Assembly: GCA_963575745.1 (NCBI GenBank)
Contig: CAUYUJ010000311.1
Coordinates: 1 to 64,000, forward strand
Source: Prorocentrum cordatum
Taxonomy: Eukaryota
DNA: 64,000 bases
Direction: 5' to 3'
In this document: in pieces, positions 273 through 37,230 of the stretch
How the letters are laid out: the number at the start of each line of letters is the position of its first letter
How positions within the stretch are numbered: position 1 is the first letter of the stretch
Position numbers and translations under genes: made by a program
The notes under the pieces: model-generated
What the model was told of the DNA's origin: nothing
The model's database searches: none
The model's input: the letters and a program-made list of their open reading frames with translations, nothing else

Positions 273-2452
273 CCTGGACGTCCTTGAGCTTGTCGGCCTT
301 CTTCTGCACCTCCTTGTACAGTCGCCCATCGAGTATGTCGATGCTCATGGCCTTCAAGCGGTCGGTAGCGTCGGCAGTCTTCGTCAGGAGCCACTCCACG
401 TTCGTGGCGTCGTGGTTCAGCCCGATCCTCAGGGTGGCGGCCGAGGCTGCGTCCTCGCCCATCTGCGCGGTGGGGTTGCTGCCGGTGGGGGCCTTCTAGG
501 CTTCTATCATTATTTCTTCCCTCCTCATCCTCCTCCCCCCCGCCTCCCCTTCCCCTCCTCCCCCTCCTCCGCCTCCTCCTCCTCCTCCTCCTCCTTCCCC
601 TCCTCCTCTCCTCCTCCTCTCCTCCTCCTCCTCCTCCCCCTGCTGGGCGCGGGGCGTTGGCCCTGGCCCAGGCGCCGCAAACTTGACCGCTTCCAGCAAC
701 CACAGCCCGAAGTCCTCGTTCGAGAGCTTGAAGCCGCGGTCAGACGTCTTGCCACTTTTGATGTCCAGGAAGGTTGCGAAGATCTGCTTCATCACCGACA
801 CGATCGATTCGTTCGAGATGCTAGCGTTGCCGAACACCACCTCGGCGAGCGCCCACTTGCGGAAGTTCGCCCAGAGATCGAGGTCCTTCTCGAAGTCGGC
901 GAACGTGTTGTTGCAGAAACGGCACTGCTCAAAGTAGTTCATCGACACGATGACCCGCCGCTTGATGAGGTCGGGAAACGTCTTATTGATGAACGCCCAG
1001 GTCCGCTGGCGCAAGCTCTCAGTCGAATCGCGGGTGGCAGCGACGTTCCCCTCGAGATACGCTTCCCAATCGACCTGGACAATTCTGGAATGCTCCATGG
1101 ACTCGAGAAACGTAATCGACTGCTTCTGGTTCCAATCAAAATTCATGAAGTCCTTGAGCCACAGAATCACGCCCTTCGGTGTCTTGAAGGTGAACACCTG
1201 GACCCTCGCCAAACCCTTCTTGAGCCCCGCGACCACGTCAACGTTGCGCGGATTCTTCTCCAGCGCCATGTAGAAAGCCGTTGCGAGATGCGCGCCAGCG
1301 AACAACCTGCACGGCGGCACTTCGCCTTCGCTGAGCTGAGCCATCGGGACCCCGCGGGAATCCCCCGACAGGCCCCACTGGAGGATATTCTCCACCTGCG
1401 TCTTCAGGGTCTGGAGCTGCTCCCTATCGTTGAGCTCATGGCGCTTGAAGTTCGGGCGACCGTCCGCATCGAACCACGGGAGCGTCGTATCGAGGAGCGT
1501 CGGTACCTCGGGAAAAACCAGCCCCTCTCCCCCCTCCCTCATCCCCCCCCTCAGCCCCCAGGAGTCTCCCCCAGCCCCCAGGGGCTGGTGCGATTAACAG
1601 AAACGCGTGGTTTTGCATGGGGCGGCCCAAGTCCAAGATGACCCAGGGCGGCTCGAGGCTCCAAGGGCGCCTCAGAGAGTCCAAGGTGAGTCGCCCTCCT
1701 CCTCCTCCTCATCTCTCCTCCTCCTCCTCCCTCCCTCCTCTCTCTCTCCTCCCCTCCTCCTCCTCCTCCTCCTCCTCCTCCTCCTCCTCCTCCTCCTCCT
1801 CCTCCTCCTCCTCCCCCTCTTCCTCGTTCTCCTCCGCCCCCCCCGCCTCCTGCCGCCTCCTCCTCGCGCCTGCGGGCCTCCAAGTCGTGGGCCTGTGAGG
1901 CCCGAGCCTCCGGCCCCCGAGTGGCCATCCGACTCACCAAACCAACTCCCCTCTTTATCATGCCCGGATCTCCCCGAACACGCTCTTGCACATCTCAAGG
2001 CGGACCACCCCGTGCAGCGTGGGCATGCGTTCATCGATGCTCTCGATCGCGGGGTCGAGAAGCCTCTGAAGGTGATCCTGTTCCACGCCGCGGCTGCTGC
2101 AGCCGTCCATCGATCTCCAGCAGCTAGCAGCGCAGAGTCTTGAAGGGTGGGAGGCTGACAGAATAGGTAGGCGTCGGCGCCGGGCCAGAAGCTGCAGGGA
2201 GCAGGGAGAGCGCGGCGGCCAGAGGCTCTGGGCTCTGAGGGGAACGACGGCGAGGCTCGCTCAGGGCCCAGGGGGGGCGCGAGGAGGGAGACGAGGAGGA
2301 GAGAGTCGGATAGCGGCCGCGAATGCGTTTGGATGGTGAGCTTTTCCATGAATTTGGTCGGACTTCCAGATGCGTCGAGCTCCTGAGCTCGCCCTCCTTT
2401 TCGACGAGCCCCCGGAGCCGTTGGTTTCGGGCCCTTCGGGCCCCAGGACATC
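273..2452 (-). CDS. Multi-exon gene with a putative ParB/Sulfiredoxin-like domain (continues past the left edge; exon limits approximate)
   Basis: Protein-like minus-strand segments at ~2452-2318, ~2190-1965, 1506-~670 and ~492-273, separated by GGA/CCT-rich introns with AG acceptors (ttcccgag|GTA at 1506) and GT/GC donors. The main exon reads RHELNDREQLQTLKTQVENILQWGL..RGVP..CRLFAGAHLATAFY..VQVF..KDFMN..SITFLE, echoing the ParB pattern (SI..G..P..GxxR..A..N..E). The domain call is inference. Confidence 0.55.
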
Positions 2453-3353: not shown

Positions 3354-6300
3354 TCACACAGAACACTCCAACTGATCGACAAACGCAACTGCAAATACCA
3401 TCATTGCTCCAGCAACATTCACGTGCATCGCGTTGCCAACTTGTTTGCAGGTGGCAGCGCGGCTGCGGTCACGGCCGTGGTTAAAAGAACACAAGGGCGC
3501 GCTATGCTGGAGATTCTCCGGCGTCAAGTCGCGCAGCGAGGTGTCGGCAAGCAACGGGAAACCTTGGAGCAACAGGAGCTCGACAGGCATCAACCAGCGG
3601 TGTGCCCACATCGCCCACTCGATATCACAATGACAAGTAATTGTATGCATTAGTTCCTCATCACCATAATGAGCACGACGTGTGGGGTCCTGCGTCAGGT
3701 TCACGACGATGTGTCGTTGGCCTGCTATTCGCTCGTAGCCCTGCAAGAACTCCTCCTCATTGACACTGAGGGCGAGGCGAAACGCACGACCGACATCATC
3801 TGCGCTGGTCTCCGAACTCTGACTGGCAGGACGAGCGCGCGCCCATGCCAGATCCTTGGCAATACAGTCTGGGGTAGCAATCAGGAACTCGTTCCACGAG
3901 CATTGGGGGTCCACCTTCAAGAAACGCAAGTATTCAGACATCTCAATGCGTGGGCGCGCGGTGCCGCGGCGCAGCAGAACAGACCACCTCCGTGGCCGAC
4001 GCACGGGCCACCCAAGCTCCGATGGGCACACCACGAGCGTCATGATATGGTAAACGTCTCCAAGGCATGACTCCAATATCGACGGGTCGAATAAATGGCT
4101 GTTCTCGTGCACAAGAACAGAAGGCATGCCCAACCTCATGAGACACACCCACGCAACGAATGCTTCCACTGTTTTCCCCATGCCGCACTCCCGCTTCCCA
4201 ACTGGAGCCCAATCCACGCATGGGGCCCCTGCGCAGTGGACGCGCCCTGCCCTGTATCTGCAACGCCTCCCGTGCTGCACGCATGGGGCGCGCCCGTCTG
4301 TCGCAGTGGCGGCGCGCCTCCAAAAGCCTGAATCAGTCAATCCGTCCAGCGAGAGCGTGCCTGCATCTCGCTTTTGCTGCAGCATATCACGCGCGTCATC
4401 TGACAGAAATTCAGTGATGTCGGAGAACAAGCATTCAGGCGCACTCGGGTGAATCAAGAGTTCATCCTGGCACTCTGCGTTCAACTCTATGGCAGCCGCG
4501 TGCGCAGGGTGAGCACATGGCCCGCCTGTCGCCAGCTCGACGGCGCGGGCGATCATGCAGAACGCAGTTCCAGGAGCATCGATGCCAGAGAACGCCGTGC
4601 TGTATACCACCTGTGGTAGCTGCTGAGCGAGATGGTCGGTTAGCGATGCTGGCCCGGCCGGCGGCGGCGCCTCCACGCCGCGCACGAGTCGCCGCCGCAA
4701 CTTGCGAGGGCGTCGAGGGCGCAGATGCTCAAAGCAGCTGGCCAACGTGCTCAGCGCCAGTGTAGACCACCCAAACAAGGCTGCCATCCCCGGCGGAAAC
4801 TCGGTTGGGGCCCTTGGGGGGGGATGCGATGGGCACGGCGGCGGCGGCATCGCGTCGCGGCGCGATCGCGCGCGAGGTGGGCGCTCCTCGCCCACGATCC
4901 GCCGCCGCGGTGACCTCGAGGACGGCGGCGACCTCGAGTGCTCGTCGGGCACCCACGCAGGCGGTCGGCCGTCGAGGTCGCTGCGCGCTATGCGCGGCAA
5001 CACAAGGTGCCGACTGCTGCGACCTGTGTCCATCGGCCATGGCCAATCTGGCAAAGTTGCCGGCGACGCTGTCTCTGTTGGGGCAGGGGCCTCCGTCGGA
5101 GGCGACAGCAGCGCTGCCGCGCTGGACGGCGGCACCGCTGCCCCGGAGTCGACGTCGGCCATCAGCGCCGCGCCCATCGCCGCGAGCACAGCAGCGTCTG
5201 CGGCGATGCTTGCGCCATGGCCGCCTTGGGCCATGCGCATGTCACCCTCGCTGGTGGGAGGTGGCTCAGGCTGAGTCTGCTGAGCTGGGGCGGCTGCGGC
5301 TGCGGTGTCCACGGGAGCGGGAGCGGCGGCCGCCGCGGCGGGGTCGCGCGACACCGCCAGCGCAGCGACCGTCGTCGCAGGTATCACCTGGCCTGCGCCG
5401 TCGGCGTCGACGGGCGGATGATCGCTCCCGCGCACGGCGTGCGCCGCGGCGGCTGGCGACCTGGCGGGCGCGTCGGCGCTGGGTGACCACGGAGGCAAAG
5501 TCTCCAGCTCAGCATGGAGCGGACCCGTGGCCAAGTCATGGGCGTCGCCCGCTGTGCTCTGCGGTTGCCCGTCGACAGGACACACAGGGCTCGACGGGGC
5601 CCGGGCCGCGCGCCCAGCGGGCTCCGCAGGGCTCGCTGCGGCAGCGACGGGAGCTGCCTGATGGAGCTGCTCGGCGTCGTCGCGGGCGCGAGGCTGGCTC
5701 GCTTCCGCAAGCGCAGATGCGCAGGCCGAGCCGGTGTCGTGCTGATGACAGCCATCACCCAGAGGAAGCACAGCATCGGTCGCCGCGATAGGAGCAGTCG
5801 CGGCAGAACAGATGATATCGGCGGTGCCGAAGGTGATCCACTTCCCGCGTCTACAGCTCGGGCCGACCTCGATCGCGTTCGCCGCGTCAATCACGGCACA
5901 CGGCGTGAAGATCCAGCAACTGATCCTGGTTGATGCGGAGACGGTGCGACCGGGGTAGACTTGCTGCGCGGCTGACCAGAACGTGGTAGAGGAACCGAGG
6001 TATTCAGTGAAGGCGCCGAAATTCTCTGGAGATAACGAATACGATCCCTCAAATTTTGCTATCCTGCGCGTCTTGTAACTACCGACGGAGGAGACATCAT
6101 CACTGAACAGATATACGTTATCATTAGCAGATAAAAAACGGCATGGTGTTGTCTGCACGACGCCAGTTGTGCGCCCCTCAACCATATCACACAACGTAGA
6201 ACTCGACACAACGAGACCCCGCTGTTTTCCATCAGTCGATACAACGATGGGTGCCTGAGGCATAGTGGCTCGTGTGGCACGCGGCGCAAGTGTGCTGGGG

Positions 6301-6419
6301 CCTAAATGGTTACGGACAGCAGATATGCCATGCGAATGGCCGTCCGTCGCGAGAAGTAGGTAGCAAAACACATGAAGTAGGAGTGCGTTTGGTGGCAGGC
6401 GATTGAAGGAGGCAGCCAT
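3354..6419 (-). CDS. C5-cytosine DNA methyltransferase with N-terminal ASCH/PUA-like domain and Ala/Pro-rich linker (likely start MPQAP near 6263)
   Basis: 1021-aa ORF with the C5-MTase motifs in canonical order: I AFSGIDA (~4590), II AIELN, III FSDITE, IV AGAPCVDW (~4225), VI VHENS (~4100), VIII GWPVRRPRRW, IX RWLMPVELLLLQGFP, X KQVGNAM (~3430). Confidence 0.9.
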   Translation of the reverse strand: MAASFNRLPPNALLLHVFCYLLLATDGHSHGISAVRNHLGPSTLAPRATRATMPQAPIVVSTDGKQRGLVVSSSTLCDMVEGRTTGVVQTTPCRFLSANDNVYLFSDDVSSVGSYKTRRIAKFEGSYSLSPENFGAFTEYLGSSTTFWSAAQQVYPGRTVSASTRISCWIFTPCAVIDAANAIEVGPSCRRGKWITFGTADIICSAATAPIAATDAVLPLGDGCHQHDTGSACASALAEASQPRARDDAEQLHQAAPVAAAASPAEPAGRAARAPSSPVCPVDGQPQSTAGDAHDLATGPLHAELETLPPWSPSADAPARSPAAAAHAVRGSDHPPVDADGAGQVIPATTVAALAVSRDPAAAAAAPAPVDTAAAAAPAQQTQPEPPPTSEGDMRMAQGGHGASIAADAAVLAAMGAALMADVDSGAAVPPSSAAALLSPPTEAPAPTETASPATLPDWPWPMDTGRSSRHLVLPRIARSDLDGRPPAWVPDEHSRSPPSSRSPRRRIVGEERPPRARSRRDAMPPPPCPSHPPPRAPTEFPPGMAALFGWSTLALSTLASCFEHLRPRRPRKLRRRLVRGVEAPPPAGPASLTDHLAQQLPQVVYSTAFSGIDAPGTAFCMIARAVELATGGPCAHPAHAAAIELNAECQDELLIHPSAPECLFSDITEFLSDDARDMLQQKRDAGTLSLDGLTDSGFWRRAATATDGRAPCVQHGRRCRYRAGRVHCAGAPCVDWAPVGKRECGMGKTVEAFVAWVCLMRLGMPSVLVHENSHLFDPSILESCLGDVYHIMTLVVCPSELGWPVRRPRRWSVLLRRGTARPRIEMSEYLRFLKVDPQCSWNEFLIATPDCIAKDLAWARARPASQSSETSADDVGRAFRLALSVNEEEFLQGYERIAGQRHIVVNLTQDPTRRAHYGDEELMHTITCHCDIEWAMWAHRWLMPVELLLLQGFPLLADTSLRDLTPENLQHSAPLCSFNHGRDRSRAATCKQVGNAMHVNVAGAMMVFAVAFVDQLECSV

Positions 6420-6679
6420 CGATGCTTGAAGTAGGAAGGCGCTTAAAGTACGGTAGAATGGGAACCAGAGGCCGTGGGCCTTGGGGTCCAGAAAGACATG
6501 CGTTCAACAAGGAGGAGGAGGGGAAGGGTGAGGAGGAGGAGTGGGAGGAGGAGGAGGAGGAGGAGGAGGAGGAGGAGGAGGAGGAGGAGGAGTTGTAGGA
6601 CCAAAAGGAGTGAGGAGTCGAGCAGGAGGAGGAGGTGGAGGAGGTGGCGGGGGAGGAGGGCGAGGAGAGGGGGAGAAGG

Positions 6680-7262
6680 GGCCCATGAGGGCCCCGATAC
6701 GGTTCCAGGGGCGCCCCGAGACGGCCCCAAGATAGCTCCAACGGGGCACCAAATGTGCCCTGGAGAGCTATATAACCAACGTCTCGACTTATATAGCACC
6801 CCCGGGACCTTTTGGGCACCCCTTGGAGCCCTCTTGGGCCCCTCCAGAGGCATCGGGAAGAGCCCAGGAGAGGGCGCCACATGTGCCCCAGAGTGCTATA
6901 TAACCAACGTCTCGACTTATATAGCCCCCCGGGGTCATTTTGGACAAATCTTGGAGCCCTCTTGGAGCCCTCTTGGGCCCCTCCAGAGGCAGCGGGAAGA
7001 GCCCGGGAGAGGGCGCAATACCCAACGCCTCGACTTATATAGCCACCTGGGATCCTTTTGGGCACCTCTTGGAGCCCTCTTGGAGCCCTCGTGGGCCCAT
7101 CCAGAGGCATCGGGAAGAGCACAGGAGCGGGCGCCACATGTGCCCCAGACAACTGTAGACCCAACGTCTCGACGTATATTGCCCCCTGTGGTCCTTGTGG
7201 GCACCGCTTGGAGCCCTCTTGGAGCCCTCTTGGGCCCCTCTGGATGCATCGGGAGGCGCCCA
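6680..7262. repeat. Degenerate ~120-130 bp tandem repeat (cttggagccctcttgggcccctccagaggcatcgggaagagc...ccaacgtctcgacttatatagc)
   Basis: About four copies visible. The ggagccctcttgggcc core resembles the repeats at 55175-55325 and 62785-64000. Confidence 0.8.
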
Positions 7263-7726
7263 GGGGAGGAGGACGAGGAGCGGCTGAGGAATGCGAGGAG
7301 ATGCTGAGGAGGCCGACGAGGGCCCACCAGACCCACGTCTGGGTGACCCAGAAGCGATCCGCAGCCGCCTCCGCGTGACCCGGATGCGCCCTCCGAGTGA
7401 CTCAGAGTCGCTCCGAAGCTGCCGTGGGGCGATCAAGATGCGCCCCACAGACGTATCCGGGTGACCCAGAGACTGCCCAGGCCCGCATCCGGGTGACCTG
7501 GAGACGAGTCGGACGCTGAGGAGGATGAGGAGGAGGAGGAGCAGGAGGAGGATGACAGATGGTTAGGTACGTGCCAGGAGGAGGACAGATGGCAGGAGGA
7601 GGAGGAGGAGGAGCTGTAATGATCATGAGTACATGTGATATGGGGGAGTGCATGTGCCCGAGCGGCCCGAGCTCTCGCAAGAGGTCACAGGTTCCTCCTC
7701 GTATACGGCTATGATGGCACATCTGC

Positions 7727-9060
7727 GATGCAAATGGCTTCGCATTTGCAAACATCGCGGATGCAAAGCAGTTTGCATTGTAGCGGTGCTCACGTAGCTG
7801 ATGCAAATGGGATTGCATCGCAGTGTTTAGCACACTCGCGATGCAAATCCATTTGCATCGGTCATTGTGGCGCAACTACAATGCAAATGAGGTTGCATCG
7901 AGTATGATTGACGATGCAAAGTGGGTTGCATCGGAAGGGTGCCGACGTAGCTGATGCAAACGGGTTTGCATCACAACAGTGTGATCGTAATCGATGCAAA
8001 CGAGTTTGCATCGTGATACCTCGCGCATTCACGATGCAAACCCGTTTGCATCGGTCATGATGGTACAACTACAATGCAAATGGTGTTGCATCGAAGGTTG
8101 CCGATGCAAGGCGGTTTGCATCGGAAGTGTGCCGACGTTGCTGATGCAAACGGGGTTGCATCACAGCAGCGCGATCGTAACCGATGCAACCGAGTTTGCA
8201 TCGTGATACTTCGCATATTCACGATGCAAACCCATTTGCATCGGTCATGAGGGTACATATGCAATGCAAATGGCATTGCATCGACTATGAGTGTCGATGC
8301 AAAGCGGTTTGCATCGGACGGGTGCCAATGTAGCTGATGCAAACGGGTTTGCATCACAGCAGTGCTATCGTAACCGATGCAACCGAGTTTGCATCGTGAT
8401 ACGTCACACGTGCACGATGCAAACCCATTTGCATCTGCTATATTGCCAGAGTTGCGATGCAAGTGGACTTGAATCACAACGGCGACACCATATCCAATGC
8501 AAACGGGCTTGCATCATGGCGAGTACCACGTCCACGATGCAAACAAGCTTGCATCGGCTACGGTTGCAGCGCTGCGATGCAAACATGGTTGCATCGGATA
8601 CGTCAGCAATCATATGATGCAAACCACCTTGCATCGGCAAACATGGCCGATGCAAAGCTAGTCACATCGGAAGGGTGACAACATAACCGCTGCGATGCAA
8701 GCCTGTTTGCATTGTATATACCAACATTATTGCGATGTGACCGGCTTCACATCGGCGGTTGGCGCCGATGCAGAACGGGTTGCATCGTAATGATGTCAAC
8801 GTGGCAGATGCAAACGGTGTTGCATTGGTACACGTCGATGACGCAAAACACATTGCATTGCAACATGACCAACGCAGCTGATGTAAACGGGTGTGCATCG
8901 TGAGTGCGTGAAGCATCCCGATGCAATCTCTTGTGCGTCAGCGACGTTGGCATCGTTACTATGCAGATCGCGTTGCACTAGCAAAGGGTGCCGTTTTGTG
9001 CTTCGCATCGGTGTGCATCGTGATGAGTCACGCGCTCACGATGCACTCCAGTGCGCGTCA
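7727..9060. repeat. Interspaced palindrome array: ~35 units of GATGCAA-N6-TTGCATC, period mostly 40 bp (sometimes 33)
   Basis: Unit starts at 7727, 7760, 7800, 7840, 7880, 7913, 7953, 7993, 8033, 8073, 8103, 8143, 8183, 8223, 8263, 8296, 8336, 8376, 8416, 8456, 8496, 8536, 8576, 8616, 8649, 8694, 8734, 8767, 8807, 8840, 8880, 8920, 8960, and degenerate units at ~9000 and 9040. Confidence 0.95.
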
Positions 9061-11306
9061 GCTGCGCGGGCGACGCTGCGATTCCAACGGGTGCGCAGCT
9101 GCTACGTGCGCGACCAGGCATAAGAGAGCGGAGACGGGAGGAGGTTGGTAGAGAGGATGATGATGATGAGGAGGAGGCAGGGGGCGCATCTTGGACTCTC
9201 TGGGGCGCTCGTGGACCAGTTTGTTTTGTTTTCCAATCCTAGGCGATGCCGAATGTTGTCGCTCGAACTTGCCGCATGGGCATCTTGGTTGTACCAGTAT
9301 GGTGTTATCATGGACAATAAAAAACACGTGTTACTATTACTAGCAATATGCATCATCATATTTATGTTTACCACTGGCCGCAGCATTATGCTTATTATTC
9401 GTATCGCTGTTATTAATATGCTCTAGTCTGCGTCGTAGTATCCCTCGTGCTTTCAATGCTATCACTAGTGCGCTTATGAGTATTACCATGATACGTGTTA
9501 TTGTTTCTCGTATTGGGACTCTGCTGGTTCTCATTATTAACATTATTATCATGAGGATTACTAGTATTAGCAGTTGTTTTCGTATCAATCATATGAAGTC
9601 CGAGGAGAAGGGCGATGAGGATGATGAGGAAACGGTTACGAGTGGGGGTTGTGCGGAGGCGGTGGGGAGGGTAAGAGGGGCATGCCCGTCGATGTGCAAT
9701 TCAAGCAGTGGTTTATATCAGCGAGGTGTGCGATCCGAATACTAACCTGTGATGGACAACTCGTTGGTGGCATATTGGAATCACAGTGGGGTCCTCTTGT
9801 GTCTACCTTGGCGGGCCACTGTCATTGATGTTCCACGTGGCAGGTACATGCAACGCTCGAGCCCCCTGACTGGCCCTTCTTGGCGCCCTCTCGGTGCCCT
9901 CGTAGACCCCTCTTGGAGAAGCCAACATGTTTGAACCCCAATAGGAAACATGCACTCAACGAGCTGTAACTCGATCTCTCCTGGGGCCCCTCTCAGCTCT
10001 GAGTAGGAGAGCGAACGATCACTACCGCTGCACCTGGGCCCCGCCACCAGGACCTCAAACAAAAGCACGGGGTGCCGCTGTGTCGCCCGGGCCCCGCCGG
10101 GCAAATTTTCAAGTACCAAAAGGGTGCCTTTTATGGTCCTGCAAAACCTGCCCGGGGTGGGCTGTTCTGTGCCGAGGGGTCATTTGGTCCTTGAAAAACT
10201 GCCCGAGAAACAGTCGCGCTGCCCTGGGCCGTTTCGGGGCCTTCCTGGGCCGCCACCGAGCATCCACGTCTAGTCTTTGCCGCGGCGCACCGCCCCCGCC
10301 CTGCAGCGCGAACCTAGCGGGTCGCTGCGCGATGGGCGAGGGGGGGCCCGCCCTCGACCTCCCCGGGGCGCGCCCAGAGAGTCACGAAACGAAGCCCGAC
10401 AGTGAGGATGTCACGAAGTTTACACCACCCACCACCGCCACCACCTGGCACCGCGACCCCCCTTCTCGGACAGCTGACTCTCTGGCTGGGGATCCTGGAG
10501 GGAGCGCGCGCTGAATTGGATTCGGCAAGAATGAGCGGGACCGCGCTGAATCTATTGTCATGCACCTGGCTCGTGACGATTTGTGTTGGAGGAGGGCCGG
10601 GCGGTGGTGGTGGTGGGTTTCCGCCCAATCTTAGGGCAGTCTTAACACCCTCTAGGGAAAGCCAGAGTCATTAGTTTCACATGGGTGAAATCACGCCTAC
10701 CGAAGCGTAACGCACCGTCTTCGAAATTCTCGGGTGGATAGTCTTGCGGTCGCAAGAGGGCGGCCAATCGACGCCTCCCTCCATCCCCTCCTCCTCCCCT
10801 TTCCTCCTCACCCTGGCCCTCCTGGCTGCGCGCTCGCGCGCGCCTGCGCCTCCGGCTTGATCGACGCCCGGTAGCCAGCGGCGGGCGGGGGCGCGGGTGG
10901 TGCCGGCGGGCCGGCGGGCCGGCCGGCGGTTTCCCACTCGACTCCACCCTCTGCTAACTTTGCTGCAGACTGCCACGAGCTGGCAAGTGAGAGAACCCAG
11001 AGTCGGAGGGCGCAACCGAATGTCATGCCAGAACGAGAAGGGGAGTGGCGAAGAGGAAGGTCGGTGAACTGGGCTGTCGGGGGGAGGTAAGTTTGGGGGC
11101 GCGGGAAGGGCGCAGGCGGATATGGGAGGCGGGGCGGGGGTAGGACGAGCGAGTGAGAGCGAGAGACAAGAAGGAGGTAGCAGGGGAGCGGGAGAGACTC
11201 GGACGATGCAGACATGAGCATCAGCAGACGTCGCAGCGGCGACCCGTCAGACCGTGAGTGCGTAAGGCATTGCAAGCGACGGCAAGGCTGTAACGGCCTT
11301 CTCGCC

Positions 11307-11475
11307 TATGGCAGTGGGCCGAGCAGCATCTGGCACAGCCTGCAGACGCTGAATGAAAACGCATCGGGCAAGAGCAGGATCAGGCTGATCGGATCAGGCC
11401 GCAATCCCGTGCGCGCCGCATCGACGGCAGGGCGACCTGCCATGCCGACGCCGCTGGCGTCAAAGCTGTGGCATG
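11307..11475 (-). repeat. Diverged tandem duplicate of the last ~55 codons of the transposase (second half of the PHD finger plus stop)
   Basis: Translates HSFDASGVGMAGRPAVDAARTGLRPD..LPDAFSFSVCRLCQMLLGPLP* versus HSFCAIGVGMASRPAVDAARAGLRPDLAVLPDAFSGSVCRLCQMLLAPLP* at 11522-11690. Confidence 0.85.
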
Positions 11476-11521
11476 GCGAAAGCACTTGAAAGCGACGACA
11501 AAGTGGGAACGGCCAACTCGC

Positions 11522-14500
11522 CTAGGGCAGTGGGGCGAGCAGCATCTGGCACAGCCTGCACACGCTCCCTGAAAACGCATCGGGCAAGACAGCAAGATCA
11601 GGCCGCAACCCCGCACGCGCCGCATCGACAGCAGGGCGACTTGCCATGCCGACGCCTATGGCGCAAAAGCTGTGCCAGGATAGCTGGCACACGCTGCACT
11701 TATCGACGCGGACAAGCCCACTCGAGCTTGGGTCCGTGCGGCTCGTGCCGCAAAAAAAACAATGTGGCGTGAATGGGTCAACGATTGCTCGATCAGTCGC
11801 CGCAAGCGCGGTCTCCCACATCTTCTTCAGTGCACATACATCGTCGTGAACAGGCTCACGACTGTCCCTGGCTTTTGCCATTCTGACCCCAATTGATGGC
11901 AGTACAATGTGATTGACACTGTCGTGCCAGTACATCCCCCCGCTCGGCACATAAGCGGGCTGCCACCGTCCGCCAACAACTTGCAACGTGGTTCCCCTCC
12001 CATACTTCATGTTCGGTTCCTCCCAGTGGATCAGAAGGACGCTCCGATCACCTTCGACTGTGACATCGGCCATAGTCAGGTTGTACGGCGGAGAGGGCCC
12101 ACCGAGTGGGCCACCGAGCTCAGACCGCCTCCACTCCAGTAATCTAGCGCCTTCCGACGCAGACTCTAACCATGCTGCGAGGACGGCTTCGACGTGAGTG
12201 CGGTTGGACATCAGCGCATCGCAGCGATCGATCAGATCGGCGTCATCCTCTGGGCAATCGCGGGACCCTGGCTCTCCGCCAACCTCCGCCTCTGCCTCGC
12301 GCACGGCCGCCGCCAGGTCGGCGTCGGCGAGAAGAACGTCGTGCTGAAGCTCGCAGACGTTCGCGCTGATCCCAGGATCAGCCTGCTGGGATGGGGCGGG
12401 CGCGCGCGCGCCCTCCCCACCGACCCCATTGAGCGTGCGTGCGCCAGAATTTCCAAGCGACCCAGCCGCGGCGACGAGGCATGTGTTCCTACGCTCCAAG
12501 ACGGGCCGGGCTAGACAGAACTTAGGTGACCTAACCCCGCGCAACCTCCGGCTCCGACAGGACCCCGCGAAACGCAAGTTGGTAAATCCCCGGCGGAGCG
12601 AGCTGGATAAGTTCAAAGCGATTCAGCCGCGCGGCGCCTGTCCGATCCAGCCCCCAACCCGCCCAGGGCCCTGAAGGTCCCAGACGGCGACATCCCACGC
12701 TCCAATAGGCGCTACGCAATCACTTTCAGACCCCGCCCCCACAGGGCCCCAAGTAAACAAGACGGCGAGCTCCAGGAACCCAGGGTCAGACCCCCCGGTG
12801 GGCGAGGAATGGGTTTCAGAGCGATCCAGCCGTGGCGACAAGGCAGATGCACTCCAAGAGGCGAGAGACACCTGACCTCCCCCCCCCCCCCCTTCCCCGC
12901 GGCCCCGACAGGGCCCGAAGTCAAGCGCGCAGGTAGGAGGGGGCAACTGCAAATTATTGGAAGAGGGGTGGCCCATGAGAGGCGTCCTCCGTGCCTCCGT
13001 GCGACGGGCGCACTCGGCCTCGATGCTTGCGGCTAGCCCGTCTCGATCGATGGAAGTCCCCAGCCACGCGTCGTCGTCGTCCCCGTCTCCGAGCTCGGCG
13101 TGGAGTCCGAACCCAGGGCTGTGCTGTTGAACAAGTTCGGCCTCGCGAGCATGTGAAGCAGCCTCTCCGAGAGCATCTTGGCTCTTGGTCGCTGCGGCAT
13201 CGTGTTTCATGTCAGACTCATCCAGCAAGCCTTCGTTCCTCAAAGCTTCGGCCAGGCATCGCAGCAGCTCGGCGTCGTAATGGTCCCTAGGCTCCTCATC
13301 ATCATTAGCTGCAGGTTTGTATTCGTCATCATCGGCTTCGGAACCGTCGCCAGCGTCTCCACCGCCCTCGCCGCCACTGCCTCCAGGATCGCCGCCGTCG
13401 CCGTCGTGCTCGGTTCTCATACGCTTCTCGGCCGGACCCTTGTTCTTCTTGGGCTTGACCTCCGGCGGCATGCGCTGCCTGGGGAAACCGCGGGGAGGGG
13501 GCGCTCGCATTGCCGCGGCGCGCCCCTCCAGCAAGGCTGAACCTAAACGGCGTTGGTCGCTTTCGTTTTGTTTTCGGCCCCCCTCGCTTTTGTCTTGAAT
13601 CGGCCTTCGCCGAAAACGAAGTCCAACCGACAGCGGCCCGCAAAATCGCCAGAAACACCGTTTAGGTCCAGACCTGCCCTCCAGTTTCAGCACGTGGCGT
13701 CCTCAGCCTCTCTCCTACCCCCCCCGTCCGCCGGCCCCTCCTCGCTCGCCTCTTTCCTCGCACCCCCGCTCCTTCCTCGCCTCCTTCCTCGCCTCCTCCC
13801 TCCTCAAAACTCAAACCCAAAAACTAGATCATCCACAAGTGGCTCAAGCCTCAATGAGAATACGTGTGCGGCGTCGGTGCACACGCGCAAATACAAGCTG
13901 CTGGTGTACACGTACCCGTCGTCGCCGTCGCCGACGGGCACGGCGTCGCCCTCGGGCGCGGCCACAGCCACCGCGCCCGCTGCGTGATCGGGTTGCTCGC
14001 GGCCGCGAGCATGCCAGGAAACGGTATGTGATGTCACAGGTATCTCGTTGGCATCGCCTCCTGGACCAATAGGGTGGGCCTGCAACAGCTCGTAGTGCTC
14101 CCCCCAAACATCAAAAGAATGCGTGGGGCGCATCGGCAGCTCAAGCCGAGCTTCGAATACATCGCCGACTCGATCGTACACGTCAACGGCCACCATCATG
14201 CCAAGGGAAAAGTTCTTCTCTGCGCATAAGTACCCACGGGACCCCACCTCAACCGCATCCTTGCCAACGAACCAACACCTTGAGAAATCTGGCAACTTAC
14301 AGGAGCGATGCCACAACGTATTGTACGCCTCTCTCCAAAGACAAGCATGAGTCTTCTCTGGTGGGTGAACTGGCGCAGGTAAGATGCGTGAATCATCATA
14401 TGCGGTGCAAGGGTTCCATCTATCAGGGTTGCCAACGACGTGGTTATAGCTGTCCGGGCTGGCGTTAAGGGTTTCATCCAGGAGATCTCTCGCAAACTCT

Positions 14501-17500
14501 TTGATGGCACTGAACTTCAACGACGCCCCTCTTTTTCCGACCCCTAACGCCTTCTTCAATGACGCCCTCGAGGATATCAGCGGGAGAGAAATATTCCTGG
14601 CTCGCTCGCAGTTCACTTTGATCAACGAGTTGACGCCCTCCAGCTCTTGGGTGTCCAGGAGCGTCCACATGGCCATCGCCGCGGCGATGACGTAGACGCC
14701 TCGTGGAGGCACCGATCCATCACGCGCGGCCTGTTCGACATCTGGTCTAAACGCAACCACCACCTTAGCTGTGTTCACATCGAGCTTACCATGTGCTTCC
14801 ATATCCAAGACCATCTGGGCAACTACCCGACGCGCGTCGCAACGGTAGCCGGGCTCCCTGTAAGCAAACCACACCAACTGCAAAGGGAATGTCGCCAGAG
14901 GCTCACTTACCCGCCGGTGGAAGCTGCAGCAGTTATGGCATATCATAAGCGCACCCAGTTCCAGGAAATACTCAGCACCGTCGTCGTCGCACATGGTTAC
15001 CCAGTCGTGATCGCAAAGAGCGCGCGACCAGTCGGTCGCTATGTCCACGCACCGTGAAAACACCAATCTGGCGAGCATCCCCCCGTCAGTTGCAAGATCG
15101 CCAGTCGGCTTCTCGAGGGTTCGCTTAAACCTGTCCAGGGGGGCCGTCGCAACGCAAGCCAGATCCAATGTGCGCCAGAACGCTTTGTCGCGCACCGCTT
15201 TCATAATGTCCTCAGCAGGAGGGGGGGCGGGGCGGGGGGGGAGGAGGAGAACGACGACGACGAGGAGTCGGAGTCGACGAGGACGACGACGAAGGTTGGG
15301 GGAGGAGGAGGATCGGAGAAGAGTGGAGGAGGACGAGGGTAGGAGTCCACGGTATGAGGAGTGGGGGGCAGGAAGAAGGGGCCTGTTTCCACTGGCTGAC
15401 TCTCGCTGAATGCGCCTGCAAGGACTCCACGGCGGGGTCGTCCGCATGGCCGCGACCCTCGGCGGCGTCAGCTGGCCTCCAGGGCCCCAGGCCAGCAGCA
15501 GGGGCAGCGGAACCGACCGGCAAAGGCCAAGACAGATGCGGTCCTGACACCCCTTGGGCCTCGGGGACCCCATCATCGGCCTCGACGGCCAGCGGCGTCG
15601 ATGACAATGATGCGACGATGGGTCCCCCGCGGCCCGCGGCGGGCCAGGAACGCATCTCCCCGGGCTGGGAGCTGTGAGAGCGCGTTGGGAGTCAGTCAGG
15701 AGTCGGAGAGTAGGACAGAGTAGGAGCACAGTAGGACACTCAGTAGGAGTGGAGCGCGGGACCCCAATGGGGCCCCCCCATCTTGTAGAGGAGAAGAGAA
15801 GAGCAAGAGAGAGCGAGAGCGGAGAGAAAGGAGTGCAGCGAAAGCCTGCGGTCTCGACGAGCTGCGGCTGCGCGGGCGCGGCACTGCGGCGTCAGATCGC
15901 ACCTGCAGTTCGCGTGCATGCCAAACGTGGGTTCAACTTGCACCATGCCAGCTTGCTGGAGTAAAATTTGGAATATCCCCACGGATCCCCAGCGGCCGGA
16001 CAGCACCCGTTGTGGCAGATTCTTGACGTGGCGAAGTGCACTCTCTGGACCATTGCAGGACTTCCACGCCTCGAACACAGAACGCGCTCCGTCTCGCCAA
16101 ATCTGGTTGAGTTTGGACAAGCTTGCGTAGTAGTGCCATTTAGGGCGCATGTTGTCAGGAAGCCGGTTGTGCAGGAAATGGTCAGTGCGTTTCAAGAAGT
16201 CGTTATGTATCAATGCATGCCCGTGATGCAGGCAAGAGGTGTCCACCACGATCGTGTTCTGAGAGCCGGCGATGTCCCCCTTCAAGAGCTTCTTGAAGAC
16301 GACCTGACTCGGGCCGAGTCGAGGGGGCGGCCGGCCGCGGCGCCAGGCGGAGGAGGAGGAGGAGGGGGCGGAGGCGGAAGAGGAGGCGAGGCGGAAGGAG
16401 GAGGGGGAGGAGGAGGAGGAGGGGGAGGGAGGGCGAGGGCGGGAAGCGGGCTGGCGGCCACTGGCGGAGGATAAGGAGGGGGGAGGAGGAGGAGCAGGAG
16501 GAGGGAGGAGGAGGAGGAAGCCGAGGGGAGGGGGAAGGGGGGGGTACGGTGGGAGGGTCGGCGGATGGATAAGGTAAGAGGAAGAGGAGTGGAAGACCAA
16601 CGACGACGAGGATGGCCCCGACCTGGTCTGGGCCGCCGTCAGAGACGTAGTTCAGGATTTTCCAATTCACTGCTACCTCAGGGTGCTCGCCAGACGTAGT
16701 CGCTCCCATCTCAGACCACGAAAACCCAACGTTCTCACAAACTTTGCGAACCATGCGGTAGGTGCCCAGTCCAGTGCCGTCAGCTGCAACTTGAAGATCC
16801 AAGATGCGACAGCGTTGGACAGACGAGTCGACCATGCGGTCGCGGATGTGTTCGGAGCCCAGCGCGTGCGAGCCGACGTAGATGCTGTGCAACTCTGTCG
16901 TCATCAGCTTGGACCGGTGCCAGACGCCGCTGTTCGTGGCGTCCGACCTCAGCGTGTGCATTTGTAGGCTGCACACAGTCCTCGCAGCGACACGAGCATC
17001 GGCATCACGAAGTAGTTGCGCCTGATATTCTGCAAGCTGAAGGGCAGCCTCAGCCTCGTTGGCGACGTGGAAGTCCAGAAATGCAGCCTGCAAGCGGGAG
17101 CCGAAGTTGACCTCTGTCCTGCACACCGATTGGTGCGATATGTCTTGCAGGACGACGGCGCCAACAGATGCAGCGGCAACGTTGGCCATGTTCTTCCTCA
17201 TTGCCAGGGCGCCTGCGCCAGGGAGCGTGAGCCGCGTGTCTTTTTTCCCCCGCACGATGTCGAAGCATGGCTCGGCACGGCGGGCGCTGCCAGTGTGCAC
17301 GGCGAGCTGCTTCTCAAGGTCGCCGATGTGCTTTGCGTAGGCCGCCCTAACGGCAGCGGCAGCCAACTTGACGCTCTTGAGTTCGGCCGCGTATGCGTCG
17401 AGCTGAACATCTCGAAACTGAATCGTCGACACGAGCGCCTCCTGAGACATTGAAGCATAATTGCCCTGTAACCTCCGGCGCCTGGCAATCGCATTCCCAC

Positions 17501-17999
17501 TCGATGACGCAGCAACAATAGACGATGGGCTCGCCGTCGACGAAAGCGAATGCGATGGTTCACTCTCAACAACCTGACTGTGGGACGGCGATGGCGGCTG
17601 CGGCCCCTCCAGAGGCAGCGGCGCAGCGGGCAATGGGCGGATCGCACGCGCCCTCTGCTCGCGCCGGTGCGCCAGCTCTGCGCGCCACTGCGCCGCATGC
17701 GCGGCAGAGAACAATCCGCGTGCACACACAGCAGAGGCGATAGCTGGAAACTGATCTGCAAACGCGTAAGTGGCGTCTCGCACCCACTGGGGTTGCAGGC
17801 GCCTGAGAAACGTTGACTGGCAAACCCTGGGCGGCTGACCCGACGCGGCAGCCAAGAGATTGGGCAGCGTTGCACGGTGTATCAAGAGCTCGTCACCATC
17901 GCCGCAACAGATCACGTGCGTCTGCACAGCGAAGCCGATCCGACGGCGTTCAACAGGGCTTAGTATGACTGGCGGCGGCGCCGCCGCCGCTGGGAGCAT
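11522..17999 (-). CDS. Spliced hAT-like DDE transposase with C-terminal PHD finger
   Basis: Exon 1 (17999-16623) has LRSDATN (D1) and YVSDGGPDQ (D2). Exon 2 (from 16303) has SCLHH (CxxH) and GRWGS (cf. hAT TRWNS). The exon from 15210 has DTQELEGVNSLIK (E, cf. ERxFS). An acidic/basic exon lies at ~13480-12920. The last exon has CFFC..CSVC..WHSFC..VCRLC (C4HC3). Introns 16622-16304 (GT-AG) and 15382-15211 (GC-AG) join in frame; other junctions are uncertain. Confidence 0.75.
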
Positions 18000-18021
18000 G
18001 TTGAGCCAAAATGGCTACGGA
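18000..18021 (-). other. Genomic relic of the dinoflagellate spliced leader abutting the transposase ATG
   Basis: Minus strand reads TCCGTAGCCATTTTGGCTCAAC|ATG, against DinoSL DCCGTAGCCATTTTGGCTCAAG: 21/22 identical. Confidence 0.95.
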
Positions 18022-18449: not shown

Positions 18450-19540
18450 TCCACGAGATGTCTGAAATTTACGGTTTCTGTGTCTGCGACGAAGGGGTAC
18501 GAGGCTCGTAGATCGAGTTTGTACGTTTGCGAGGCTGTCCCAGTCGAAGTGCGGTGTCCTTCGCTTCGCTCCAATGGGCCCCCAGGGCCCAGGCCCCGGG
18601 CCCCAGGGTCTAGGTAGGGCAGCAGCAGGGGGCCAAGGGGACAGGGGACGCGACAGGGCGAGAGGCTCGAGGCGGCGGCGCAGATGTGACGGAACACCCA
18701 TGCTGGTCGGTCGGTTGTCAGCGGTCAGCGGCAATGTCCCAGAAAGCCTCTGCCCGTGCGAATTCTGCTTACCCCCCTGCAAGCAAGCCTCACGATAGCT
18801 CCAAATTCCGATCGCGGCGAGCGCGACCTGGTCCGCGAATCCGACCCAGATCTCCGACGTGCCAGCGCGAGACTCGGGCCCCGGGCCCCAGCCCTGGCCC
18901 GGGCTCGGGGATGAGGGGGGGCCCGGGGCAGGGGGGGAGGAGGAGGAGGAGGGGTAGGAGGAGTCCTCAGGAGGAAGAGAGGAGGAGCGCGGCCGCAAAT
19001 TTGTTTGGATGCTGAGCTTTTCCAGAACAGTTGGTTAACTCAAGATCGCGATCGGGGGAGGCGGTGGAGGAGGAGGAGGCAGGAGGGGGAGGAGAAGGGA
19101 GAAGAGAGGAGGAATGTGGAAACGATGCGCAGGTGAAGCTCACGCGGGGCCACTGTGGCCATCGAGGCGGCCATCGCAAAACGACCCAGCGAACAGAATC
19201 AGAAAAGCGATCGATGGGGTCGAGAGCGCCAGTGGGCCAGGGCCTAGGGGCCCTAGGGCCGAAATCTCGACGTCGGCGAGTCGGATGTCTGGGAGAGGCA
19301 GCGGCGCCGCGTGCGCGTGCACCCTCACGCTCACGAAGTGCCCCAGATCCTCCACCTCCTCCGCCGCGAAGGCCTTGGACACAAAAAACTTCGAAGCCCC
19401 CTCGGCGCTGCTCTCCTCATCCGAATCAATCGAGCCTCTCAAGGGACCCGTCTCCAGCGCGGGCCGCTGCGTCGGCGGCGCGCGCGCGGGAGCGTGGTGC
19501 GCCGCCGCTGCCATCCCTGAAGAAATGGATTGACGGGCGG
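18450..19540 (-). CDS. Probable multi-exon gene or pseudogene of unknown function
   Basis: Protein-like segments ~19530-19250 (SIDSDEESSAEGASKFFVSKAFAAEEVEDLGHFVSVRVH), ~19060-18993, ~18875-18680 (SEIWVGFADQVALAAIGIWSYREACLQ) and ~18580-18460, separated by GC/GGA-rich intron-like tracts. Confidence 0.35.
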
Positions 19541-21531: not shown

Positions 21532-21808
21532 CCAGGGCCTCTCAAGGCCTCGCCGTTGCATTCGGAGGCCTTCGGCCCTATCCGCCTGACCCCGCGATCC
21601 GCGTGAGAGGCGCGCCGAAACCCCCCAGGCTGACGCGGGGGGCGGGGAGGGGGGGGGGGGGAGCAGGAGAAGGAGAAGGATGAGGAGCAGGAAGACACGG
21701 CGGAGATGAAGCTTGGGGGAACTCCGCGCACCTCTCACACCATCGCGGGGTCAGGTGGATTTGACCGAAGGCCTCCGCGTGTAACAGCGAGGCCCTGAGA
21801 GGCCTTGG
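21532..21808. repeat. Foldback (MITE-like) element with ~88-bp inverted arms
   Basis: 21532-21620 matches the reverse complement of 21721-21808 (ccagggcctctcaaggcctcgccgttgcattcggaggccttcgg..cctgaccccgcgat..gtgagagg). An extra partial arm lies at 21818-21844. Confidence 0.75.

Positions 21809-21930: not shown

Positions 21931-21965
<35 letters not shown>

Positions 21966-37189: not shown

Positions 37190-37230
<41 letters not shown>

What the first reader, a model, noticed from the sequence alone, without database searches (positions are those of the whole stretch)
7727..9060. CRISPR/iteron-like array of ~35 palindromes with fixed-length variable spacers in a eukaryotic genome
Seen: a 20-bp inverted repeat GATGCAA-N6-TTGCATC recurs with a strict 40-bp period (20-nt spacers; a minority 13 nt, once 10 and once 25). 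Loop and spacer sequences vary while lengths and arms are held. Arms can covary: the unit at 8734 is GATGTGA-N6-TCACATC, and flanks switch c..g to t..a (7952/7973). Spacers in ~7840-8435 recur as a five-unit ~190-193 bp higher-order repeat; after 8436 they look mostly unique, and the arms decay toward the right end. Inference: an ordinary satellite would homogenise spacers as well, so this looks constrained, either as phased binding sites for a dimeric protein (parS/iteron/transposase subterminal sites; 33 and 40 bp are near 3 and 4 helical turns) or as a hairpin-punctuated RNA processed into ~20-nt guides. It lies between the DNMT and transposase genes.
Basis: partly seen in the sequence, partly recalled or inferred. 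Interest (0 to 1): 0.9.

Follow-up and report, generated by a model that had tools for sequence, protein, structure and literature searches.

The report
Palindrome-box minisatellite beside hAT-like transposase
A 1.3-kb tandem array of about 35 copies of a 20-bp palindrome is real and its arms are clearly kept by constraint, but it looks like a transposon-linked minisatellite of protein-binding boxes, not a CRISPR-like system.

Summary
GATGCAA-N6-TTGCATC occurs 31 times (up to 2 mismatches) at 7727-8939, against 0.31 expected. I count 35 units to 9059; 26 of 34 intervals are 40 bp. A 193-bp five-unit higher-order repeat spans 7830-8435.

Across its three copies, 0 of 70 arm columns vary, against 27 of 93 spacer and 10 of 30 loop columns (p=4e-8). 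The arms are therefore constrained.

The spacers are not acquired. Six or seven of 15 'unique' spacers are decayed copies of the higher-order-repeat spacers, and none matches elsewhere in the window. Covariation is weak and shows no strand bias, so arm sequence is conserved, not just pairing.

The neighbours are confirmed. A split ORF set at 11522-18014 (-) belongs to a large Pfam-less family whose model matches the hAT transposase Hermes. ORF 3354-6419 (-) is a DNMT5-like C5 methyltransferase. No ParB or cas gene was found.

An 85-nt inverted repeat (1660-1745 / 9122-9215) brackets the methyltransferase ORF plus the array.

Best reading (about 0.45): phased binding boxes for a dimeric DNA-binding protein, probably the transposase, in a transposon-borne minisatellite. 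Element ends and other copies could not be obtained.

The parts
7727..9060 (.). Tandem array of 35 units, each a 20-bp palindromic box GATGCAA-N6-TTGCATC, usually flanked c...g to give CGATGCAA-N6-TTGCATCG. The period is mostly 40 bp.
7830..8435 (.). Young core of the array: a 193-bp higher-order repeat of five monomer types (40+40+33+40+40), 3.2 copies.
   Evidence: TRF, 86% matches; 0 of 70 arm columns vary against 27 of 93 spacer columns
8436..9060 (.). Older, decayed monomers. The spacers are partly still assignable to the HOR classes, and the arms degrade towards 9060.
11522..18014 (-). hAT-like DDE transposase gene in colinear pieces (tblastn HSPs 17945-16617, 16315-15881, 15451-15383, 15210-14065, 12202-11546). 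The gaps look like introns or microsatellite. Seen by eye in alignment A4: motifs RSDATN, SDGGPDQ, EGVNSLIK...R, and a C-terminal Cys/His finger.
   Evidence: AF2 model of homologue P0048 and Foldseek
3354..6419 (-). ORF with a C-terminal C5 cytosine methyltransferase domain (DNMT5-like). The N-terminal half is uncharacterised and low in complexity.
1660..1745 (.). Left copy of an ~85-nt inverted repeat (core GCGCCTCAGAGAGTCCAAG plus CCT-type simple repeat).
9122..9215 (.). Right copy of the inverted repeat, about 60 bp beyond the last array unit. With the left copy it brackets the DNMT ORF plus the array (7.5 kb).
   Evidence: (the only 2 matches in the window, in inverted orientation; 0.08 expected)
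6744..7269 (.). Four copies of a 118-139-bp repeat rich in CTTGGAGCCC motifs, lying between the DNMT ORF and the array.

Best explanation
The array is a minisatellite that grew by ordinary tandem duplication: monomers, then a five-monomer higher-order repeat, with older copies decaying at the edges. Each monomer carries a 20-22-bp palindromic box whose primary sequence and internal spacing are under purifying constraint. Constraint on sequence rather than on pairing, together with two-fold symmetry, points to recognition by a sequence-specific homodimeric DNA-binding protein. The array would then be a multivalent landing pad. The most plausible binder is the hAT-like transposase encoded 2.5 kb away. 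Its N-terminus is modelled as a parallel coiled-coil dimer followed by a small helical domain. On this reading the array is the transposon-borne, subterminal-type repeat cluster seen in hAT, Rehavkus and foldback elements, where more repeats mean stronger transposase recruitment. Shown: the array, the differential constraint, descent of the spacers, and the hAT-like fold and DNMT nature of the neighbours. Inferred: that a protein binds, that it is this transposase, and that the array lies inside a mobile element.
For: Constraint: among the 3 HOR copies, 0 of 70 arm columns vary against 27 of 93 spacer and 10 of 30 loop columns (Fisher p=4e-8 and 2e-6). In 19 non-redundant 40-bp units the arm consensus frequency is 0.79-1.0 against 0.26-0.68 in spacers. 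Sequence rather than pairing: 218 Watson-Crick, 11 G-U and 16 mismatched cells on the + strand, and 218, 10 and 17 on the - strand. There are only 6 compensated cells against 3.0 +/- 1.5 in shuffles (28 of 500 shuffles reach this). The covariation score is 0.162 against 0.131 (8 of 500 reach it). Loop length N6 is kept in all 35 units and 26 of 34 periods are 40 bp. Transposase: 699 homologues at E<=1e-3. Three window ORFs map colinearly on the 1527-aa protein P0022. The AF2 model of homologue P0048 (mean pLDDT 75.3, 491 of 999 residues >=90) shows an RNase H-like core plus an all-alpha insertion. The top 10 Foldseek PDB hits are all Hermes hAT transposase (E 3.6e-8 to 7e-6, prob 1.00), then RAG1 and P element. 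Dimer: two copies of window residues P0003 180-344 scored 0.42 against a best control of 0.01. That mark was reached by 21 of 30 proteins solved as pairs of one chain and 0 of 23 solved as single chains; on eukaryotes, 17 of 29 and 0 of 30. The runs agree in at least 38% of contacts. The partner's pLDDT is only 48-49, so its fold is uncertain. The interface is an in-register heptad pattern over residues 7-62. Literature passages read: Rehavkus has a PHD-finger transposase plus a minisatellite before the 3' TIR (PMC6446971). Rehavkus subterminal tandem repeats reach up to 50 monomers, and more repeats strengthen transposase binding, citing Liu and Wessler 2017 (bioRxiv 10.1101/2024.12.02.626372). 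An inverted-repeat copy lies about 60 bp outside the array.
Against: No TIR plus 8- or 9-bp TSD pair enclosing the transposase gene was found (0 candidates). No short inverted matches link the array flanks to 18-22.5 kb. There is only one cluster of boxes in 64 kb: 1 GATGCAA and 2 TTGCATC words lie outside it. hAT elements need binding sites at both ends (recalled). The only inverted repeat found (1660-1745 / 9122-9215) encloses the DNMT ORF and the array but excludes the transposase gene. That repeat also belongs to a dispersed CTTGG-rich repeat family. Known hAT subterminal motifs are 5-6 bp and irregular, not 20-bp palindromes at a 40-bp period (recalled). The small N-terminal helical domain gave no significant structural match (best Foldseek E 0.6). 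No other copy of the array or element could be examined. Homogenisation of the arms by gene conversion, without selection, is not excluded.
Confidence: 0.45

Rival explanations
1. A plain, functionless minisatellite. The palindromic core is kept uniform by mutational mechanisms rather than by selection. Candidates are short-tract gene conversion or unequal exchange seeded at the identical arms, and hairpin-templated 'quasipalindrome correction' during replication.
For: The structure is a typical satellite: a young HOR core with decayed edges. The window is packed with other tandem arrays, 94 TRF rows in all. One is a second 1.27-kb array (48027-49295) with a conserved GGAATCC core and variable 3-4-nt linkers. 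The single doubly compensated unit (8734) has a half-converted relative at 8649, as template switching would give. No binder has been demonstrated.
Against: Conversion tracts limited to two 7-nt arms, while the 6-nt loop between them varies at the spacer rate, would be unusually precise (10 of 30 loop columns and 27 of 93 spacer columns vary, against 0 of 70 arm columns). The older units also keep their arms: about 33 mismatches in 280 arm positions, my count. Their spacers meanwhile have dropped to 7-15 of 20 identities with their class.
Confidence: 0.27
2. A cis-regulatory or chromatin element of the host, not of a transposon. A host dimeric factor binds the boxes to act as an enhancer, insulator or methylation-nucleation array upstream of the DNMT5-like gene, or as an episome-retention or origin element of the EBV oriP family-of-repeats type.
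For: On the - strand the array lies 1.3 kb upstream of the DNMT ORF start at 6419. Boxes are mostly flanked by CpG on both sides: the column-2/23 pair is C-G in 17 of 33 distinct units. CpG positions take 25 of 50 substitutions although they are 4 of 16 positions, and 20 of those are CpG transitions. This is compatible with methylated CpGs at the box edges.
Against: CpG observed/expected is 1.24 in the array and 0.84-1.1 around it, so there is no sign of heavy deamination. The outer positions may simply be less constrained. There is no expression or methylation data, and no viral genes nearby.
Confidence: 0.13
3. A transcribed array of hairpins, processed into about 40-nt or about 20-nt small RNAs (a guide-like or siRNA/miRNA cluster).
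For: Each unit can form a 7-8-bp hairpin. Mean RNA minimum free energy is -8.5 kcal/mol on the + strand and -8.3 on the - strand. There is one doubly compensated unit (8734) and one compensated pair in 9040.
Against: G-U and mismatch counts are the same on both strands, 11/16 and 10/17. Covariation barely exceeds shuffles. Arm sequence, not pairing, is what is conserved. Spacers have 0 hits at up to 3 mismatches elsewhere in the window; 20 shuffled controls gave 0-1. Rfam gave only sub-threshold miRNA-like noise: best 31.9 bits against a gathering score of 90.
Confidence: 0.08
4. A CRISPR-like adaptive array with acquired spacers.
For: Only the superficial layout: a palindromic repeat plus fixed-length variable spacers.
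Against: Spacers recur as a 193-bp higher-order repeat, and the 'unique' ones are decayed copies of it. There are no cas or other Pfam families in the ORFs scanned. The context is eukaryotic: a Copia RVT_2 (E 3.3e-21) and a gene in intron-like pieces. No spacer targets were found.
Confidence: 0.01

Closest known systems
Rehavkus / foldback-type DNA transposons with subterminal minisatellites
   Same: A DDE transposase with a C-terminal Cys/His (PHD-like) finger, and a tandem minisatellite of tens of monomers on the 3' side of the transposase gene close to an inverted repeat. The repeats are thought to recruit transposase (passages of PMC6446971 and bioRxiv 10.1101/2024.12.02.626372).
   Different: The transposase here is structurally closest to hAT (Hermes), not to MULE-type enzymes. 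Rehavkus is described from arthropods and annelids. No 9-bp TSD or TIR pair was found here. The monomers here carry a strict palindromic box. The PHD assignment is weak: Pfam PHD-type hits at E 0.006-0.09 in 1-2 of 46 family members.
hAT transposon subterminal transposase-binding repeats (Ac AAACGG-type motifs; Hermes subterminal repeats bound by a multimeric transposase)
   Same: A hAT-like catalytic fold next door, and many repeated short sites that could engage a multimeric transposase. CpG at the site edges recalls the methylation-sensitive binding of Ac (recalled, not from a call).
   Different: Known hAT motifs are 5-6 bp, irregularly spaced, within 100-300 bp of both ends (recalled). 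Here there are 35 20-bp palindromes at 40 bp over 1.3 kb, in one cluster only.
Alpha-satellite higher-order repeats with the CENP-B box
   Same: Tandem monomers organised into a higher-order repeat with diverged monomers at the array edge, and a short protein-binding box conserved inside otherwise diverging monomers (recalled).
   Different: Scale and role: 171-bp monomers, megabase centromeric arrays, and an asymmetric 17-bp box. Nothing here shows a centromere.
EBV oriP family of repeats / plasmid iterons and parS clusters
   Same: Tandem, evenly spaced palindromic sites for a dimeric protein, with variable linkers (recalled).
   Different: No viral, Rep, EBNA1-like or ParB gene was detected. 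The context is a eukaryotic chromosome.

Membership tests
CRISPR array | Spacers are independent acquisitions, unrelated to each other | tested here: not met
   193-bp HOR x3.2. Six of 15 non-HOR spacers match an HOR class at p<=0.01, and pairwise identity is above all 500 shuffles.
CRISPR array | Adjacent cas genes | tested here: not met
   Pfam scans of the window's ORFs gave only RVT_2 and a weak DNA_methylase hit.
Iteron / parS cluster | Cognate Rep or ParB gene nearby | tested here: not met
No Pfam ParB or Rep hit.
Minisatellite / satellite with higher-order repeat | Head-to-tail monomers related by descent, an HOR core and decayed edges | tested here: met
hAT superfamily transposase (the neighbour gene) | RNase H-like DDE core interrupted by an all-alpha insertion domain; C(2)H and RW-type motifs | tested here: met
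   AF2 model topology. Top 10 Foldseek hits are Hermes, prob 1.00. Motifs DCxxHQxHL and GRWGS in alignment A4; that these are hAT-typical is recalled. No Pfam hAT family hit.
hAT transposon (the element) | Short TIRs and an 8-bp target-site duplication enclosing the gene | tested here: not met
   0 candidates with an 8- or 9-bp TSD plus a 12-nt TIR at up to 2 mismatches around 11.5-18 kb. With a single copy this is weak.
hAT transposon (the element) | Transposase-binding repeats at both ends | tested here: not met
   Only one cluster of boxes in 64 kb.
Rehavkus | PHD finger in the transposase | tested here: inconclusive
   C-terminal CxxC...CxxC...H..C pattern aligned with homologues. Pfam PHD-type families only at E 0.006-0.09 in 1-2 of 46 members.
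Rehavkus | Minisatellite just inside the 3' TIR | tested here: inconclusive
   The array ends about 60 bp from the inverted-repeat copy at 9122-9215, but the partner copy at 1660-1745 excludes the transposase gene.
Rehavkus | MULE-related catalytic domain | tested here: not met
   Best structural matches are hAT Hermes. The IS256/MULE-like ISCth4 appears only at E 5e-3.
C5 DNA methyltransferase (the neighbour ORF) | Motifs I (FxGxG), IV (PC), VI (ENV) and X (GN); similarity to known DNMTs | tested here: met
   FSGIDAPG, APCVDW, HENS and GNAMHVN are conserved in 3 sequences. The profile hits DNMT5 (7r76) at E 1.9e-9, DNMT2 at 1.2e-4 and M.HhaI at 1.5e-3. Pfam PF00145 is below cutoff (13.8 bits against 22).
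Structured RNA hairpin array | Compensatory covariation and a strand-specific G-U pattern | tested here: inconclusive
   6 compensated cells against 3.0 +/- 1.5 (28 of 500 shuffles reach this). G-U counts are 11 and 10 on the two strands.

The most novel reading that the evidence does not exclude
The array is the cis-acting landing pad of a previously undescribed, Pfam-less branch of hAT-like transposons of marine protists. The transposase would read a CpG-flanked palindrome as a coiled-coil dimer. The element would carry or sit beside its own DNMT5-like methyltransferase, so that methylation of the box edges gates transposase binding. This would be a self-contained methylation-controlled transposition switch.
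Probability: 0.12. Interest if true: 0.75.

Novelty: new variant of a known kind. Interest (0 to 1): 0.45.

Why it matters
If the boxes are transposase sites, this locus gives a clean natural example of a satellite kept alive by selection on a protein-binding core. The control is built in: loops and spacers drift while the arms do not. It also gives an entry point to a very large uncharacterised transposase family (699 homologues, no Pfam model) that appears in ENA-sourced sequences and one protist transcriptome. The adjacency of a DNMT5-like gene and CpG-edged boxes suggests a testable link between DNA methylation and transposase recruitment. If the boxes are not bound, the array is simply one of many tandem repeats in a repeat-rich region.

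Tried and rejected
- Whole genome: none is held for this window, so the proposed genome-wide scan for arrays could not be run.
- Pattern scans with two consecutive units in metagenome contigs and viral contigs gave 0 hits each.
- The search for related loci with the transposase alignment: two alignments were too divergent for the tool. A 5-sequence alignment gave one 2-kb metagenome locus, L001, with no flank and no tandem repeat, and nothing in viral contigs.
- Sequencing runs: 4 runs were listed. Two hold part of the stretch, with shares of 0.22 and 0.09. No RNA holder was listed. None was laid, so I draw nothing on habitat or expression.
- The ESM Atlas was unavailable for two window proteins and one homologue.
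- Earlier findings of this scan: nothing by place, sequence or words.
- The last protein word-search, with the transposase N-terminal piece and 'longer' lengths, found nothing at E<=1e-5. The tool itself calls this weak evidence.
- The AF2 model of the 91-aa helical domain after the coiled coil (mean pLDDT 67.5) had no Foldseek match better than E 0.6. Its DNA-binding nature is unproven.
- Rfam at E<=1 over 6000-12000 gave 15 sub-threshold rows, mostly miRNA-like, none near its gathering score.
- Spacer-target search within the window gave 0 hits.
- TIR/TSD search gave 0 candidates, plus one GC-rich low-complexity hit on the far side of the Copia element.
- Helical phasing: 40 and 33 bp are 3.8 and 3.1 turns at 10.5 bp per turn, so strict in-phase stacking is not supported (my arithmetic).
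Full report
**1. The observation.**

The pattern GATGCAA-N6-TTGCATC matches 31 times at up to 2 mismatches. All matches lie between 7727 and 8939 in one register. Dinucleotide-preserving shuffles give 0.31 on average, with a largest value of 2.

With a laxer regex I place 34 units, and I added one degenerate unit at 9000 by eye, giving 35 units from 7727 to 9059. The 34 start-to-start intervals are:
- 40 bp, 26 times
- 33 bp, 6 times
- 30 bp, once
- 45 bp, once

Tandem Repeats Finder reports a 193-bp period with 3.2 copies and 86% matches at 7830-8435. This is a higher-order repeat (HOR) of five monomer types. Arm mismatches rise from 0-1 up to unit 8616 to 1-4 from 8649 onward.

**2. Are the arms really held while the rest drifts?**

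Yes. Among the three HOR copies, variable columns are:
- 0 of 70 arm columns
- 27 of 93 spacer columns
- 10 of 30 loop columns

Fisher tests give p=4e-8 for arms against spacers and 2e-6 for arms against loops. Loops and spacers do not differ (p=0.65). In 19 non-redundant 40-bp units, arm positions hold their consensus base in 79-100% of units, against 26-68% for spacer positions. The six-base loop length is unchanged in all 35 units.

**3. Are the spacers acquired or inherited?**

They are inherited. Beyond the HOR itself, I compared the 15 non-HOR 20-nt spacers with the HOR spacers.
- Six match an HOR spacer class in the same register at p<=0.01 (12-15 of 20 identities).
- One more matches at p=0.044.
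- Their mean pairwise identity is 6.57 of 20, above all 500 shuffles (mean 5.01, maximum 5.68).

A weak spacer consensus survives: G at position 21, C-A at positions 32-33, and C at position 40. No 20-nt spacer has a match at up to 3 mismatches elsewhere in the window. Twenty shuffled controls gave 0 or 1. The CRISPR-like reading therefore fails. The array is a decaying tandem repeat with a protected core.

**4. Structure or sequence?**

Pair counts in the 7-bp stem are nearly the same on the two strands:

| Strand | Watson-Crick | G-U | Mismatch |
|---|---|---|---|
| + | 218 | 11 | 16 |
| - | 218 | 10 | 17 |

There is no strand-specific wobble signature of an RNA. On an 8-pair structure, 6 cells have changes on both sides, against 3.0 +/- 1.5 in shuffles (28 of 500 shuffles reach this). 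The covariation score is 0.162 against 0.131 (8 of 500 reach it). By the tool's own caveats this is weak.

The one striking case is unit 8734, where two adjacent pairs are compensated. It has a half-converted relative at 8649, with the variant right arm only. That pattern fits hairpin-templated correction as well as it fits selection.

The c..g to t..a flank change in the D-type units is a pair of CpG transitions. CpG positions are 4 of the 16 consensus positions but take 25 of 50 substitutions, and 20 of those are CpG transitions. CpG is not depleted in the array overall (observed/expected 1.24).

What is conserved is the arm sequence itself. That points to sequence-specific recognition, and the two-fold symmetry points to a dimer.

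**5. Neighbours.**

Pfam finds almost nothing in the window. The only clear hit is a Copia-type RVT_2 at 24651-27083 (E 3.3e-21).

*The methyltransferase ORF.* ORF 3354-6419 (-) ends in a C5 methyltransferase domain.
- Motifs FSGIDAPG, APCVDW, HENS and GNAMHVN are conserved with its two homologues.
- Pfam PF00145 scores below its cutoff (E 0.038).
- A 3-sequence profile hits DNMT5 (7r76) at E 1.9e-9, DNMT2 at 1.2e-4 and M.HhaI at 1.5e-3.

*The transposase gene.* On the other side of the array, three ORFs map colinearly onto single long proteins such as P0022 (1527 aa). These are 16203-18014, 13804-15891 and 11522-12622, all on the - strand. tblastn shows five colinear pieces separated by microsatellite or intron-like gaps.

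The family has 699 members at E<=1e-3 and no Pfam model. Most members looked up come from ENA contigs of 4-8.5 kb. One comes from a EukProt transcriptome labelled Pyramimonas.

Alignment A4 shows the motifs RSDATN, TSDxGPDQ (invariant D-G-D), DCxxHQxHL, WR, GRWGS, EGxNSxIK...R...LLSAR and a C-terminal Cys/His finger.

An AlphaFold2 model of the 999-aa homologue P0048 has mean pLDDT 75.3, with values above 90 across most of residues 250-850. It has a beta1-3/alpha/beta4/alpha/beta5 RNase H-like core, a long all-alpha insertion and a final helix bearing the conserved E. Its ten best Foldseek matches in the PDB are all Hermes hAT transposase (E 3.6e-8 to 7e-6, probability 1.00, about 600 aligned columns). 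RAG1, P element and ISCth4 follow.

So 'between the DNMT and transposase genes' is correct. 'ParB-like' is not supported. ORF 496-1593 (-) looks like a real protein but has no family. Its single detected homologue has 38% identity, and NCBI names it as from Prorocentrum cordatum.

**6. A dimeric reader?**

Two copies of the window-encoded N-terminal fragment (P0003 residues 180-344) were folded together. The score was 0.42 against a best control of 0.01.
- The mark was reached by 21 of 30 proteins solved as pairs of one chain and by 0 of 23 solved as single chains.
- On eukaryotes it was reached by 17 of 29 and 0 of 30.
- The runs agree in at least 38% of contacts.
- The chain's own pLDDT is only 48-49, so its fold is uncertain.

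The interface is an in-register heptad pattern over residues 7-62, that is, a parallel coiled coil. The model supports dimerisation but does not show it. The small helical domain that follows gave no significant structural match.

**7. Is the array inside a mobile element?**

This is unresolved.
- No TIR/TSD pair encloses the transposase gene.
- No second cluster of boxes exists in the window.
- An ~85-nt inverted repeat does exist: 1660-1745 against 9122-9215, at about 80% identity. Its 19-nt core occurs only at these two places in the window, in inverted orientation, against 0.08 expected.

This repeat brackets 7.5 kb holding the DNMT ORF, a 128-bp repeat block and the array. The array ends about 60 bp inside the right copy. 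That layout resembles 'a minisatellite just inside a terminal inverted repeat'. However, it excludes the transposase gene, no TSD is evident, and the repeat belongs to a CTTGG-rich family found elsewhere in the window.

Other copies could not be obtained.

**8. Comparison with known systems.**

From passages I read, Rehavkus elements combine a PHD-finger transposase with a minisatellite before the 3' TIR (PMC6446971). In Tribolium, Rehavkus elements carry subterminal tandem repeats of up to 50 monomers. The same preprint cites Liu and Wessler 2017 for the finding that more repeats strengthen transposase binding (bioRxiv 10.1101/2024.12.02.626372).

hAT elements use multiple subterminal transposase-binding motifs, and Hermes engages them as a multimer (recalled; PDB titles). 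Alpha-satellite HORs with the CENP-B box show the same 'conserved box in diverging monomers' logic (recalled).

The present array works like these. It fails membership of each in at least one tested feature; see the membership table.

**9. Verdict.**

The array is real, non-random and selectively or mechanistically protected in its arms. The best explanation (about 0.45) is a transposon-linked minisatellite of phased palindromic binding boxes for a dimeric protein, probably the adjacent hAT-like transposase. The rivals are:
- a functionless satellite with conversion-maintained arms (0.27)
- a host regulatory or chromatin array (0.13)
- a hairpin RNA cluster (0.08)
- a CRISPR-like array (0.01)

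I rate it a new variant of a known kind, of moderate interest. The Pfam-less hAT-like family and its possible link to a DNMT5-like gene are the more novel parts.

Noticed in passing
window 48027-49295: A second 1.27-kb tandem array with a 10-11-bp unit. It has a conserved GGAATCC core and variable 3-4-nt linkers, and many units form TCCTTAAGGA-type palindromes. It shows the same 'conserved core, variable linker' logic on a smaller scale.
   Followed up: partly
window 11522-18014 (-) and homologues P0007-P0156: A large transposase family with no Pfam model (699 hits at E<=1e-3). It has a hAT-like fold, an N-terminal coiled coil and a C-terminal Cys/His finger. It is worth describing as a family in its own right.
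   Followed up: partly
window 1660-1745 and 9122-9215: An ~85-nt inverted repeat bracketing the DNMT5-like ORF plus the palindrome array (7.5 kb). It could be the termini of a DNMT-carrying element. No TSD was seen.
   Followed up: partly
window 2294-2348 and 18969-19024: A 56-nt direct repeat (84% identity). One copy lies about 1 kb downstream of the DNMT ORF and the other about 1 kb upstream of the transposase gene, bracketing the whole 16.7-kb block.
   Followed up: partly
window 11260-11680: A tandem duplication of about 204-216 bp (81-88% identity) covering the 3' end of the transposase ORF and the sequence just downstream.
   Followed up: no
window 496-1593 (-): A plausible 365-aa protein with no family. 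The only homologue found has 38% identity and is named by NCBI as from Prorocentrum cordatum.
   Followed up: partly
window 22436-27083 (+): A Copia-type retrotransposon (RVT_2, E 3.3e-21) just beyond the transposase block. A 100-nt-arm hairpin lies at 21532-21808 and an (AT)20 tract at 21931-21971 just before it.
   Followed up: no
window 37162-46000, 49462-51247 and many others: Very long trinucleotide arrays: (TCA)n of about 4.5 kb and 2.4 kb, (GTA)n of 1.8 kb, and many (GGA/CCT)n tracts. CTTGG-rich 10-43-bp repeats occur at 55172-55320 and 62747-63987. The region is extremely repeat-rich.
   Followed up: no
window 28385-28830: An 83-bp tandem repeat, 5.4 copies, with a conserved block AAATGTGGCTCTCGCCTTAGCGCCGCGCACA.
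   Followed up: no
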